A program made the position numbers. A DNA stretch of 64,000 nt from Podarcis gaigeae. Taxonomy: Eukaryota. Shown in pieces: positions 22,129 to 25,100 of the stretch (within the stretch, counting starts at the first letter, position 1; every line of letters begins with the position of its first letter). The stretch lies in NCBI GenBank assembly GCA_964106915.2, contig OZ066927.1, one strand, 5' to 3'.

Positions 22129-25100
22129 AAATGCCAAGGTAAACAGACCAGTGCCAAATTTACATACCTCGCTCAAATCAGCTTCTCCCCAGGCAGTGAT
22201 GTTGCGATAGCTGGAATTAATTCACCGCGGAGGAACACACATACCCCCTGTGTAGAAGGTTAGATTGCAAGGTCTTTGGGGCAAAGATCCTTCAACTTGC
22301 ATGTTTAAGCGCCTTGCCCATGAATGCTGCTCTATTAAAAAAAGAAAGATTTCAAGAGAGGAAAGACAGAAAAGCCTATTTAATTCTTTGCCAACCTGGT
22401 GTCATCCAGATGTTTTGGATTACAACTCCCATTAGCCCCAGACAGCACGCAGACCCAGTTGGGATCCAGAACATCTGGAGGGCACTGGGTTGGCAAAGGC
22501 TGGTCTAATGCATGCCATATTGTTTGATCCAGACCAAAGTCATGGGCAATGCACAATCAGTTCCAAAACAACAGGTTGTTGTTCTCCAGCTCTGTGCCTG
22601 AAGTCTGCTGCTAAAACCTGAATTGTTCTTTTGATCAGCAAAAGACTCCTAATAGCCTGGCCAATTGCGTGGTCCAACAATGGCAGAGGCCAAGGAGAAC
22701 CCAGTTTTACCAAGCCAGTGGCCAAGCAGATGTCTCTTCAGAAGCTCACCAGCAGAACCAGGGACTCCCAGAGGGGTTATGGGGCCTGGGGCATGTGCAA
22801 CTTGGAGTTCCCCTACAAGAACTCAAGAATGTGTGTACAAAGGGAGGCATGTGAAAATTATTGCTTGCATGGACTGCGTGCGAGAAGCAGAAATCTCACA
22901 TGCAGCTCTTGGAAAAAGGAGGGCAATTCCCTGGCTAGAGCTGGCACAGTTTACATCAGAGATAAGCTGGAAGAACATAGTAAACGTGTACAATGGTACC
23001 TCTTACAGATAGGTAGCCGTGTTGGTCTGCCATAGTCAAAACAAAAAAAATTCCTTCCAGTAGCACCTTAAAGACCAACTAAGTCAGTTCTTGGTATGAG
23101 CTTTCTAGTGCATGCACACTTCTTCAGATACACCTCATATCAAGAACTGACTTAGTTGGTCTTTAAGGTGCTACTGGAAGGATTTTTTTTTGTTTTGACT
23201 ATGGCAGACCAACACGGCTACCTATCTGTAACTGGAACTATGGAAGGCACCACATTGAGCCGCATGAAATGGAAGTCCATCAACCTCACCAAGAAACTTG
23301 CACAGGTACAGACTGATATCTTCTTTCTCGTGTATCTGAAGAAGTGTGCATGCACACGAAAGCTCATACCAAGAACTGACTTAGTTGGTCTTTAAGGTGC
23401 TACTGAATGGTACCTCTGGTTACATACTTAATTCGTTCCAGAGGTCCATTCTTAACCTGAAACTGTTCTTATCCTGAAGCACCACTTTAGCTAATGGGGC
23501 CTCCTGCTGCTGCCGCGCGATTTCTGTTCTCATCCTGAAGCAAAGTTCTTAACCCAAGGTACTATTTCTGGGTTAGCGGAGTCTGTACTGTATCAAAAAT
23601 ATGCGCCAAAATTAGAAAGCAAGGAACAAAATTAAGTTAGAAACACTTTCTGTGTCTAGGTGCATGCAACAGGAATTGCAGGTCTAAGCAAAGTCTTCCT
23701 TGTCTTCACTGATGCAAAGTTATCCTGACTTGAGAGCCAGTGCAGTGTAGTGGTTAGAGTGCTGGCCTATGACCTAGGAGCCCTGGGTTCAAATCCCCTG
23801 CCTTCAACCAGAAATATGGAGAGAATGATACTGGACTATTTTACAGCCTTGTTGCAAATTTACTAAACTGATTTTAGGCCTAGGGCTTGGAAAGACCCTG
23901 GGGGTTCAGACCCGCGTGACCTCACCCAGTCGCTGTCTCCCAGCCTTACCTACCTACCCTGCAGGGTTGTTGTGAGGCTAAAACGGGGAAGGGGAGGCAA
24001 AACAAGGGCACCCCCTTGAACTCTAAAGGTAACGGGATCCCTGACCATTAGGTCCAGTTGTGACCGACTCCAGGGTTGTGGCACTCATCTTGCTTTATTG
24101 GCCGAGGGAGCCAGCGTACAGCTTCCGGGTCATGTGGCCAGCATGACTAAGCTGCTTCTGGCAAACCAGAGCAGCGCACGGAAACGCCGTTTACCTTCCT
24201 GCCAGAGCGGTACCTATTTATCTACTTGCACTTTGACGTGCTTTTGAACTGTAAGGAAGGCAGGAGCAGGGACTGAGCAACAGGAGCGCAACCCGTCGCG
24301 GGGATTTGAACCGCCAACCTTCTGATCAGAAAGTCCTAGGCTCTGTGGTTTAACCCACAGTGCCACCCATGTCCCATCTTTGGAGGAGAGGGTGGTATAA
24401 AAATGCAGTAAATAAACAAGGCTGCATCCCCTGTTCCTAGGAATCTGGCTGCAACAATTACCTCATATTCATGACAGCAATTATGAAGCGGCCTTCATAC
24501 GAGGCCCCAGCAAGCTCAAGGCCCCTGCTACTGCTGCTAGAGAACTGCCTTTCCCCACACCTTCCAATATCTATGGGGAGCAAGGAAAGAAGGGGGTTAA
24601 AAAACAAACAAACAAGGCTGCTGTTCCTTTAAGGCCAACGCGCGCTTCCCTCCTCCGCCTCCTGAGGCACGTTCCTGCGCTGACCTCTCCGCCGAACTTG
24701 ACTTCAAGGAACTGCTCTACGCCCGCCTCCGCCCACCAAGCACAAGCCATGCCCGTTCTAGCAGGCGATTGGCTGCGGCGCTGCTCTCGCCCGCCTTTCC
24801 TGGGCCATTCCGAACTATCCGGCAGAAGAGGGAGCCCACAGCATGTTCGGGTGAGGCCAAGCAGCTGGGGCGAGAGGAAGGAAGGAAGAGGGGCAGCTGG
24901 GAACCAGGTCGCCTGCAAATAAAAGCAGGTAGGGCTGAATGGTGGTTGGCGGGGATGGGAGTATTAGATCAGGAGCAGCTGATCTAGAAGGGACACCCTT
25001 TAACCTGGGAGTTCTGGGTTCCCCTTCAACTGGGGGGCTCCTCTGTTCTTTGTAAGGGCTGCAATTCTAAACCCCACACTTTCCTGGCAGTAAGCCCCAT

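What the first reader, a model, noticed from the sequence alone, without database searches (positions are those of the whole stretch)
23134..23405. Retrozyme-like 229-nt unit between equivalent cleavage sites, with a head-to-tail junction
Seen: the forward segment begins at CTC|ATA (23134-23139), within 3 nt of a hammerhead cleavage position. It runs through the pLTR and only the first 30 codons of the PLE ORF, then jumps at 23329/23330 straight to GTGTAT-hammerhead. The next cleavage site (23365/23366) is exactly 229 nt after the first (23136/23137). The inverted copy starts at the same GTGTAT nucleotide. Inference: the template may have been a small non-autonomous, ribozyme-delimited, possibly circular RNA mobilised in trans by a PLE RT/GIY-YIG protein. 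That would be a lizard analogue of non-LTR retrozymes rather than a random truncation.
Basis: partly seen in the sequence, partly recalled or inferred. Interest (0 to 1): 0.65.

Follow-up and report, generated by a model that had tools for sequence, protein, structure and literature searches.

The report
Mini Penelope element insertion with hammerhead
This is a 402-base, protein-less mini copy of a Penelope-like jumping gene with one intact small hammerhead ribozyme, built the usual way for such elements; it resembles known "retrozymes", but one copy cannot show that it belongs to such a family.

Summary
The 229-nt spacing, the jump at 23329/23330 after 30 codons and the shared GTGTAT boundary are all real.

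The thing is one 402-bp insertion (23004-23405) flanked by a perfect 12-bp target duplication. It lies in the end of a MITE-like repeat. It consists of a 130-nt inverted copy and a 272-nt forward copy of a coding-dead Penelope-like element (PLE).

- The 30 codons match N-termini of turtle PLE proteins that carry RT and GIY-YIG domains.
- One ribozyme (23330-23365) fits the published minimal PLE hammerhead. The inverted one is broken. The first "cleavage site" keeps only 3 nt of ribozyme.
- All three cleavage sites were copied through, so none is an end of the insertion.
- The inverted-plus-tandem layout, the one-sided "tail" and the two end points match the published PLE mechanism. That mechanism extends both DNA strands, starts internally and needs no ribozyme cleavage.
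- The locus fails the working definition of a retrozyme: no tandem array, one complete ribozyme, and a fold no more stable than shuffles.

Whether the junction recurs could not be tested, because no lizard genome was available. Non-LTR retrozymes derived from PLEs are already reported in reptiles. Interest is low.

The parts
22992..23003 (.). Left copy of the 12-bp target-site duplication (AATGGTACCTCT)
   Evidence: D5: 12 of 12 identical to 23406-23417; all 9 other termini of the same host repeat examined carry this motif once.
23004..23133 (-). Inverted copy, 130 nt. Read on the - strand it holds a 36-nt degenerate hammerhead (23133-23098), a 40-nt post-cut segment (23097-23058) and a 54-nt leader or 'tail' (23057-23004)
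   Evidence: I1 and I2. It differs from the other copies at 4 positions: 2 in the ribozyme, 1 in the post-cut segment against the forward copy, and 1 in the T-run.
23098..23133 (-). Degenerate hammerhead of the inverted copy. Two changes break the two helix II pairs next to the core (10.1-11.1 and 10.2-11.2)
   Evidence: (2 mismatches); the hammerhead fold scores -1.1 against -6.0 kcal/mol for the intact copy and is not the minimum-energy fold. It fails my descriptor.
23134..23176 (+). Start of the forward copy: the last 3 nt of a ribozyme (CTC), the homologous cut position 23136/37, and a 40-nt post-cut segment ending ACTG
   Evidence: D1. There is no catalytic core upstream on this strand.
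23177..23239 (+). Leader. 23177-23230 equals the 54-nt 'tail' of the inverted copy and contains an AC-rich stretch at 23206-23222. A further 9 nt lead to the ATG
   Evidence: 1 difference in 54 nt against the inverted copy; the local fold is not better than shuffles (z -0.14).
23240..23329 (+). First 30 codons of a PLE ORF
   Evidence: 12 library proteins match from query residue 1; in 12 of 12 the peptide continues SK(C/R)K.MD.., which is absent here; the relatives carry the DKG motif, RVT_1 and GIY-YIG.
23329..23330 (+). Internal junction, ORF codon 30 joined directly to GTGTAT
   Evidence: It is unique in the 64 kb (1 match with up to 3 mismatches).
23330..23365 (+). Intact minimal type I hammerhead. 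Helix I is 4 bp, the core is CUGAAGA, an extra A lies before 10.1, helix II is 5 bp with a 4-nt loop, then GAAA, palindromic AGCU and C17. The predicted cut is at 23365/66
   Evidence: (the minimum-energy fold is the hammerhead layout). The features are compared with PMC4209133.
23366..23405 (+). 40-nt post-cut segment; the 3' end of the insertion at ACTG
   Evidence: identical to the inverted copy's segment, 1 difference to the forward one. It is followed directly by the right target duplication.
23406..23417 (.). Right copy of the 12-bp target-site duplication. It begins AAT, which is ATT on the primed bottom strand
   Evidence: D5. The ATT preference of a lizard PLE endonuclease comes from PMC11167929; linking it to this site is my inference.
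23418..23592 (.). Rest of the host repeat (MITE-like, inverted GGTACCTCGGGTTA.. termini) into whose first bases the element inserted. The right end is approximate
   Evidence: (19 motif matches against 0.09 expected).

Best explanation
**Shown.** 23004-23405 is one insertion event of a coding-dead mini copy of an endonuclease-bearing Penelope-like element. It has the standard complex PLE layout. An inverted copy lies at the left. A more-than-unit forward copy lies at the right and reads twice through the element's own end point (ACTG). A 12-bp target duplication flanks the whole.

**Inferred mechanism.** The PLE protein nicked both DNA strands and extended both, each time starting inside the RNA.
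- The bottom strand was primed at ACTG, 40 nt 3' of the ribozyme cut. It was copied back for 272 nt.
- The top strand was primed at CTGTA, about 94 nt 3' of a cut and just after an AC-rich stretch. It was copied back for 130 nt and stopped at GTGTAT.
- The 54 nt between the two start points is the PLE 'tail', present at one end only.
- The templates were not cleaved by the ribozyme.

[quoted passage not shown] The junction codon 30|GTGTAT was already in that RNA. So the template was a linear, more-than-unit transcript of about 305 nt from a tandem, ORF-less mini-PLE. That mini-PLE keeps the ribozyme-to-leader module that the protein recognises, and it was copied in trans. No circle is needed.

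The locus itself is inert. It has one working-looking ribozyme per strand at most, and any transcript would fold into a 97-bp hairpin.
For: **Insertion and borders.**
- Perfect 12-bp duplication at both ends (D5).
- All 9 other termini of the host repeat examined have the motif once.

**PLE identity.**
- The 30 codons match 12 library proteins (E 1e-11 to 6e-4).
- The named relatives are 15 of 15 turtle proteins.
- These carry a DKG motif and RVT_1. One carries RVT_1 followed by GIY-YIG (P0022).

**Layout.**
- Inverted and direct repeats.
- The three copies differ at only 4 positions in 402 nt, as expected for one event.
- PMC8557442 (passages read) describes the partial tandem, an adjacent inverted 5'-truncated copy and a tail at one end as characteristic of PLEs.

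**Mechanism (PMC11167929, main text read).** An Anolis PLE protein behaves as follows.
- It cleaves and extends both strands.
- It starts at two adjacent internal sites in an AC-rich stem-loop at +111 to +118, with the ribozyme cut at +26. By my subtraction that is 85-92 nt 3' of the cut.
- The tail is the stretch between the two sites.
- Ribozyme mutants insert normally.
- No RNA-seq reads end at the cut.
- It prefers an ATT cleavage motif. Here the primed bottom strand ends in ATT.

**Copy-through.** 36, 3 and 36 nt of ribozyme lie 5' of the three cut positions.

**Top-strand priming.** 6 of 10 bases of target/RNA complementarity lie next to the start of the inverted copy (binomial p = 0.02).

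**GTGTAT used twice.**, I2.

**Hairpin.** -178 kcal/mol, z -26, 0 of 200 shuffles fold as well.
Against: - No second copy of the junction, tail or ribozyme lies in the 64 kb. No lizard genome could be searched, so an inherited junction and movement in trans are inference.
- No protein in the 1.84-billion-protein library matches beyond query residue 39 of the 51-codon junction ORF. The two word-index searches found nothing. That is weak evidence, because none of the named relatives is from a lizard or snake: all 15 are turtle proteins.
- The tail is 54 nt, not the published 30-40 bp.
- The stem-loop around the start sites is no more stable than shuffles (z -0.14; 84 of 200 shuffles fold as well).
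- The Anolis element belongs to a named clade (Poseidon), and I did not show that this element shares it.
- The forward copy stops 3 nt 5' of a cut position, about a 3% coincidence that my model leaves unexplained.
- A transcription start at GTGTAT is not shown.
- GIY-YIG in P0022 scores 21.4 bits, just under Pfam's cut-off of 22.6.
Confidence: 0.45

Rival explanations
1. One-off event. Ordinary PLE RNAs served as templates. The bottom-strand cDNA reached an RNA 5' end at GTGTAT after only 76 nt. It then jumped to a second RNA at ORF codon 30 and went on. On this reading the junction exists at this locus only, and no non-autonomous family exists.
For: - The junction is unique in the window.
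- No junction-spanning protein was found in the libraries.
- GTGTAT as an RNA end explains both boundaries (I2).
- Template jumping at RNA 5' ends is an established property of non-LTR retroelement reverse transcriptases. I saw this only in the search listing (title and abstract of PMC8857657); the paper was not read.
Against: - It needs three RNA molecules or ends and a 76-nt first template.
- Jumps usually land on 3' ends (my recall), and nothing marks codon 30 as an RNA end.
- A single 305-nt template explains the same layout with two priming events.
Confidence: 0.3
2. The template was a 229-nt RNA cut out by hammerheads at both ends and circularised. The PLE protein then copied it round 1.19 times.
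For: - The spacing of homologous cut positions is 229 nt.
- Copy-through of cut sites is what a religated circle would give.
- The forward copy starts 3 nt from a cut position.
- A circle as template for more-than-unit PLE copies was proposed in PMC4209133 (Discussion read).
- Metazoan retrozyme circles of about 170-400 nt are known (PMC7229834, passages read).
Against: - No end of either copy lies at a cut site.
- The circle does not explain why the inverted copy ends exactly at the junction nucleotide.
- The predicted circle is no more stable than shuffles (z +0.62; 221 of 300 shuffles fold as well). Retrozyme circles are described as highly self-paired.
- The ribozyme is the minimal type. 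That type showed no detectable cleavage as a single motif and low activity as a dimer (PMC4209133).
- For the Anolis PLE, cleavage was dispensable and no RNA ends were found at the cut (PMC11167929).
Confidence: 0.1
3. A full-length PLE inserted here and later lost about 2-3 kb between codon 30 and the 3' ribozyme by a genomic deletion.
For: Internal deletions of transposon copies are common (general knowledge).
Against: A random deletion end would have to fall on the very nucleotide where the inverted copy also ends (I2). There is no repeat at the break to drive recombination.
Confidence: 0.05
4. The junction is a splice junction. A PLE transcript was spliced from a donor at codon 30 to an acceptor just 5' of helix I, and the spliced RNA was copied.
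For: [quoted passage not shown]
- PLEs are known for introns (PMC8557442, passages read).
Against: The unspliced element is not available, so no donor or acceptor can be inspected. Splicing does not explain why the inverted copy ends at GTGTAT.
Confidence: 0.05
5. Assembly artefact: a complex PLE locus was collapsed by the assembler.
For: PMC8557442 notes that tandem or inverted PLE structures often cause assembly problems.
Against: - There are no Ns in the window.
- There is no repeat at the junction that could cause a collapse.
- The target duplication is clean and the three copies are near-identical but not identical.
Confidence: 0.03

Closest known systems
Complex insertions of endonuclease-bearing Penelope-like elements (pseudo-LTR, inverted 5'-truncated copy, one-sided tail), as described in PMC8557442 and explained biochemically for Anolis Poseidon in PMC11167929
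   Same: - A hammerhead lies in the repeat upstream of the ORF.
- The forward copy is longer than one unit.
- An inverted copy is adjacent.
- An extra stretch is present at one end only.
- A target duplication flanks the insertion.
- The two end points lie 3' of the ribozyme cut.
- The primed strand ends in ATT.
   Different: - The body is reduced to 30 codons.
- The tail is 54 nt rather than 30-40 bp.
- The ribozyme sits 103 nt before the ATG instead of overlapping it.
- The clade of this element was not determined.
Metazoan non-LTR retrozymes (PMC7229834; bioRxiv 10.64898/2026.07.22.740005)
   Same: - A small ORF-less unit of a few hundred nt with a type I hammerhead.
- It derives from a PLE pseudo-LTR.
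- It is presumably dependent on PLE proteins.
- The unit length of 229 nt falls within the published ranges.
   Different: - There is no tandem array and only one complete ribozyme.
- The ribozyme is the minimal PLE type rather than the canonical type.
- The predicted circle is not unusually self-paired.
- The unit keeps the PLE leader and 30 codons.
- Copy number is unknown.
Putatively non-autonomous PLE derivatives such as those of Chlamys elements (including MRC1) in Chlamydomonas (PMC8557442, passage read)
   Same: Short derivatives that form pseudo-LTRs and head-to-tail copies and share sequence with an autonomous family.
   Different: They belong to a different PLE clade and kingdom. Those elements lack canonical hammerheads and share the 3' ends of their autonomous partners, whereas this one keeps the 5' leader region.
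Twin-priming inversions of LINE-1 (recalled; no paper read)
   Same: An inverted 5' segment is made by priming from the second nicked strand, with short target/RNA complementarity at the start.
   Different: Here the two copies overlap by 97 nt of template, and the enzyme is a PLE RT with a GIY-YIG nuclease.

Membership tests
Minimal (PLE-type) type I hammerhead, features listed in PMC4209133 | Catalytic boxes CUGANGA and GAAA, with a non-G base at the cut | tested here: met
   23336-23365 on the + strand. The inverted copy keeps the boxes.
Minimal (PLE-type) type I hammerhead, features listed in PMC4209133 | [quoted passage not shown] | tested here: met
   The forward copy has the extra A, then G...C closing helix II. 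The inverted copy has A at 11.1 and fails.
Minimal (PLE-type) type I hammerhead, features listed in PMC4209133 | Palindromic 15.2-16.2 with no real helix III; a short helix I (4-5 bp) | tested here: met
   AGCU is followed by C17, and helix I is 4 bp. Helix II is 5 bp plus a 4-nt loop, shorter than the 7-8 bp quoted for Schistosoma.
Minimal (PLE-type) type I hammerhead, features listed in PMC4209133 | Self-cleavage, as a dimer or with protein help | not testable with these tools
   This needs in vitro transcription of one- and two-copy constructs.
Rfam hammerhead families | A match to a curated covariance model | tested here: not met
   There were 0 matches at gathering scores in the window. 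No hammerhead family was among the 16 matches at E <= 10 in 22900-23500. These models expect a helix III.
Endonuclease-bearing Penelope-like element | One ORF with a telomerase-like RT and a GIY-YIG nuclease | tested here: not met
   The locus keeps only 30 codons. Relatives of those codons carry DKG, RVT_1 and, in one protein, GIY-YIG at 21.4 bits. The locus is a derivative, not an autonomous member.
Endonuclease-bearing Penelope-like element | Pseudo-LTR with a hammerhead; a partial tandem plus an adjacent inverted 5'-truncated copy; a one-sided tail | tested here: met
   The definition is taken from PMC8557442.
Non-LTR retrozyme (working definition of bioRxiv 10.64898/2026.07.22.740005) | A tandem repeat found by TRF with at least two consecutive units, each holding a complete type I hammerhead | tested here: not met
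   TRF gave 0 rows for 22500-24000 at minimum score 30. There are 1.19 units and one complete ribozyme on the + strand.
Non-LTR retrozyme (PMC7229834) | A small, highly self-paired circular RNA | tested here: not met
   The 229-nt circle folds at -44.9 kcal/mol against a shuffle mean of -47.7 (z +0.62), with 57% of bases paired. This is a prediction only; the existence of a circle is not testable here.
Non-LTR retrozyme | A multi-copy family sharing the same unit | not testable with these tools
   No other copy lies in the 64 kb. The only open DNA collection holds bacteria and archaea (0 matches).
Non-LTR retrozyme | No coding capacity for its own mobilisation | tested here: met
   The only ORF has 51 codons, 21 of them read from the ribozyme and tail.

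The most novel reading that the evidence does not exclude
The locus is a daughter copy of an undescribed lizard family of 229-nt mini-PLEs. Each unit holds the minimal hammerhead, the 40-nt post-cut segment, the leader and the first 30 codons. That would be just the RNA module that the PLE protein binds and starts on. The family would exist as tandem arrays transcribed from GTGTAT, be processed by paired hammerheads into circles, and be copied in trans. It would be a transitional form that still shows how a retrozyme is carved out of an autonomous PLE. The weaker version, a recurrent family moved in trans without any circle, I put at about 0.4-0.45.
Probability: 0.1. Interest if true: 0.45.

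Novelty: new member of a known kind. Interest (0 to 1): 0.2.

Why it matters
If the junction proves recurrent, this unit would mark out the minimal RNA needed in cis for PLE mobilisation in a second lizard PLE lineage. It would also be an intermediate between autonomous PLEs and retrozymes, which a 2026 preprint already derives from PLE pseudo-LTRs. As it stands, it is a clean worked example of a PLE insertion. Its two ends and one-sided tail fit the dual-strand, internal-initiation model from Anolis biochemistry. It also shows that ribozyme cut sites are not the ends of the copies. That helps annotation but does not change the field.

Tried and rejected
- **Rfam.** There was no hammerhead match. 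The sub-threshold miRNA-family matches at 23054-23180 (best 66 bits against a gathering score of 95) come from the long inverted repeat, and I reject them as miRNA genes.
- **Word-index protein searches** with the 51-codon junction ORF found nothing. The 'longer' search gave 3 candidates, none scored. The 'near' search gave no candidate. A 30-residue query was too short for the tool.
- **Prokaryotic genome collection.** A scan with a 26-nt tail stretch gave 0 matches.
- **Empty-site search in the window** gave 0 matches. I replaced it with a degenerate terminus motif and a read-out of the paralogous termini.
- **Autonomous PLE in the window.**
  - I scanned 32 stop-to-stop frames of 110 aa or more against Pfam.
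  - The only RT fragment (60422-60964) resembles R2/LINE enzymes, with PDB matches at E 0.004-0.006.
  - It shows no similarity to the turtle PLE protein, E 4.1.
- **Stem-loop at the start sites**, an analogue of the Anolis AC-rich stem-loop, gets no support from folding energy (z -0.14).
- **Two N-terminal PLE segments in P0001.** I considered them as a sign of a tandem mini-unit in a turtle. I dropped the idea, because a gene model spliced from the GLK codons explains them equally well and no turtle DNA was at hand.
- **Literature.** No paper held both 'retrozyme' and 'lizard'. None held 'Penelope-like', 'hammerhead', 'minimal' and 'Anolis' together.
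Full report
**Anatomy**

The region 22992-23417 is a single insertion with clean borders. A perfect 12-bp direct repeat (AATGGTACCTCT) lies at 22992-23003 and 23406-23417 (D5). Between the two copies are 402 bp in three parts.

- **23004-23133, inverted.** Read on the minus strand it begins GTGTAT. It runs through a 36-nt hammerhead-like stretch, a 40-nt segment ending ACTG, and 54 nt of leader ending CTGTA.
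- **23134-23329, forward.** It holds CTC, then the same 40-nt segment and the same 54-nt leader. Nine more bases follow, then an ATG at 23240 and 30 codons.
- **23330-23405, forward.** It holds GTGTAT with the 36-nt hammerhead, the predicted cut at 23365/66, and the 40-nt segment ending ACTG.

The three overlapping copies differ at only 4 positions, as expected if they were made in one event. The window has no N.

These include the 229-nt spacing (D1) and the fact that the inverted copy and the internal junction share the same first G (I2).

**Target site**

The insertion sits in the first bases of a MITE-like repeat with inverted GGTACCTCGGGTTA-type termini. That terminus motif occurs 19 times in the window against 0.09 expected. 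All 9 other termini I read out carry the ACA(G/A)TGGTACCTC motif once. The 12-bp repeat is therefore a duplication made by this insertion.

**Ribozyme**

Rfam finds no hammerhead, either at gathering scores or at E <= 10 in 22900-23500. The sequence at 23330-23369 nevertheless has every feature that Cervera and De la Pena list for the minimal hammerheads of PLE pseudo-LTRs (PMC4209133, whole main text read):
- the CUGANGA and GAAA boxes;
- an extra base between positions 9 and 10.1;
- a G10.1-C11.1 pair;
- a palindromic AGCU in place of helix III;
- a 4-bp helix I.

Its minimum-energy fold is the hammerhead layout. A descriptor I wrote from those features hits once in the 64 kb and in 0 of 200 shuffles.

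The inverted copy has two changes that break the two helix II pairs next to the core, and it fails the descriptor. The first "cleavage site" (23136/37) has only CTC left of a ribozyme on its strand.

**ORF remnant and element family**

The 51-codon ORF across the junction found nothing in the word-index searches. A full HMMER scan of 1.84 billion representatives gave 12 proteins at E <= 0.001. All match from query residue 1, and the matches end between residues 29 and 39. In 12 of 12 the shared peptide goes on as SK(C/R)K.MD.., whereas the window switches to ribozyme-derived codons after residue 30. The break after codon 30 is therefore real.

One of these proteins, P0011, led to 15 named relatives, all from turtles.
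- P0015, P0016 and P0017 show a DKG motif.
- P0014, P0016, P0017 and P0022 have RVT_1.
- P0022 has RVT_1 followed by GIY-YIG at 21.4 bits, just under the cut-off of 22.6.

The DKG motif is named as diagnostic for PLEs in PMC8557442. The element is thus an endonuclease-bearing PLE. No autonomous PLE lies in the window. The one RT fragment (60422-60964) is R2/LINE-like and unrelated to the turtle PLE protein.

**Fit to the known PLE mechanism**

PMC8557442 (passages read) describes PLE insertions as partial tandems with an adjacent inverted 5'-truncated copy. A 30-40-bp tail is often present at one end only.

PMC11167929 (main text read) reports the following for an Anolis Poseidon PLE.
- The protein cleaves and extends both DNA strands.
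- Reverse transcription starts at two adjacent internal sites in an AC-rich stem-loop at +111 to +118, with the ribozyme cut at +26.
- The tail is the stretch between those sites.
- Ribozyme mutants insert normally, and unprocessed RNA is the main substrate.
- No RNA-seq reads end at the cut.
- ATT is the preferred DNA cleavage motif.

This locus maps onto that picture as follows.
- The forward copy ends at ACTG, 40 nt 3' of a cut.
- The inverted copy starts at CTGTA, about 94 nt 3' of a cut and just after an AC-rich stretch.
- The 54 nt between those two points are present at the left end only.
- The primed bottom strand ends in ATT.
- Next to the start of the inverted copy, 6 of 10 bases of the target are complementary to the RNA (p = 0.02).

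The mapping is my inference from one locus. Two points fit imperfectly. The tail is longer than published, and the local stem-loop is no more stable than shuffles (z -0.14).

**Test of the retrozyme reading**

Against:
- TRF finds no tandem repeat. There are only 1.19 units and one complete ribozyme. This fails the working definition of an active non-LTR retrozyme in bioRxiv 10.64898/2026.07.22.740005 (Methods read).
- All three cut positions were copied through, so no copy end is ribozyme-made.
- The 229-nt circle is predicted at -44.9 kcal/mol against -47.7 for shuffles (z +0.62; 221 of 300 shuffles fold as well). Retrozyme circles are described as highly self-paired (PMC7229834, passages read).
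- Any transcript of this locus would fold into a 97-bp hairpin (-178 kcal/mol, z -26).

For:
- The unit has no coding capacity.
- It keeps the region from the cut site to about 100 nt past the second start point. By analogy with the Anolis minimal RNA (+20 to +172), this is the part the protein needs in cis.
- The forward copy starts 3 nt from a cut position.

**The GTGTAT coincidence**

Two independent copy boundaries fall on the same nucleotide. This argues against a random genomic deletion and for a discrete RNA end there.

The simplest account is a transcription start in the pseudo-LTR. PMC8557442 cites such a start for Penelope, and PMC11167929 assumes a pseudo-LTR promoter. One template of about 305 nt, laid out as repeat-body-repeat, would then give the whole locus with two priming events. 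That requires the junction to have been in the template already, which would make it a tandem mini-PLE moved in trans. I put this at about 0.45. A one-off jump during this insertion I put at about 0.3. The ribozyme-made circle I put at about 0.1. Later deletion, splicing and misassembly share the rest.

**Novelty**

All the pieces are in print.
- Hammerheads in PLE pseudo-LTRs, and a circular-template idea, are in PMC4209133.
- Metazoan non-LTR retrozymes are in PMC7229834.
- Their PLE origin, and their presence in 4 of 5 sampled reptiles with a mean consensus length of 176 bp, are in bioRxiv 10.64898/2026.07.22.740005 (Results and Discussion read).
- A lizard PLE with a hammerhead has been studied in vitro (PMC11167929).

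No paper in the library holds both 'retrozyme' and 'lizard'. A lacertid family would therefore be a new member of a known kind, not a new kind.

**What stayed unchecked**

- The source genome and related lizards were not available.
- Supplementary files of the papers were closed. The species and family tables of the 2026 preprint may already include this family.
- The taxon of the window was not verified.
- Nothing in the window looked human.

Noticed in passing
window 4908-5132, 23406-~23592, 33820-34020, 55415-55632, 57164-57383, 59416-59563: This is a family of short repeats with inverted GGTACCTCGGGTTA-type termini, each preceded by (T)ACAGT or ACAAT. They look like MITEs. One copy is the target of the PLE insertion. 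The motif occurs 19 times against 0.09 expected.
   Followed up: partly
window 2793-3131 (+): An open frame matches the ADAMTS-type thrombospondin type 1 domain (PF19030, E 7e-11). It is probably an exon of a host gene, so the PLE piece may lie in or near an ADAMTS-like gene.
   Followed up: no
window 60422-60964 (+): This is a reverse transcriptase fragment (RVT_1, E 5e-10). It is closest to R2/LINE-type enzymes in the PDB and unrelated to the PLE.
   Followed up: partly
window 23004-23230: The inverted and forward copies form a 97-bp near-perfect hairpin in RNA from either strand (-178 kcal/mol). This hairpin explains the sub-threshold Rfam matches to several miRNA families. It could be a source of small RNAs against the PLE family.
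   Followed up: partly
window 23208-23219 and 23240-23329, against proteins P0003-P0009 and P0012: Turtle gene models read through the PLE leader as ..TNTA.., which is the translation of 23208-23219 here. They share 56-79% identity with the 30 codons. The family's leader and ORF start therefore seem conserved between turtles and this genome. Many turtle models diverge right after ..PKGLK, which suggests a splice donor there that captures host exons.
   Followed up: no
window 23173-23179 and 23231-23237: The 7-mer ACTGGAA occurs at both inferred start points. The forward copy ends right after its ACTG, and the inverted copy starts right before the second one. This may be chance or part of the start-site signal.
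   Followed up: no
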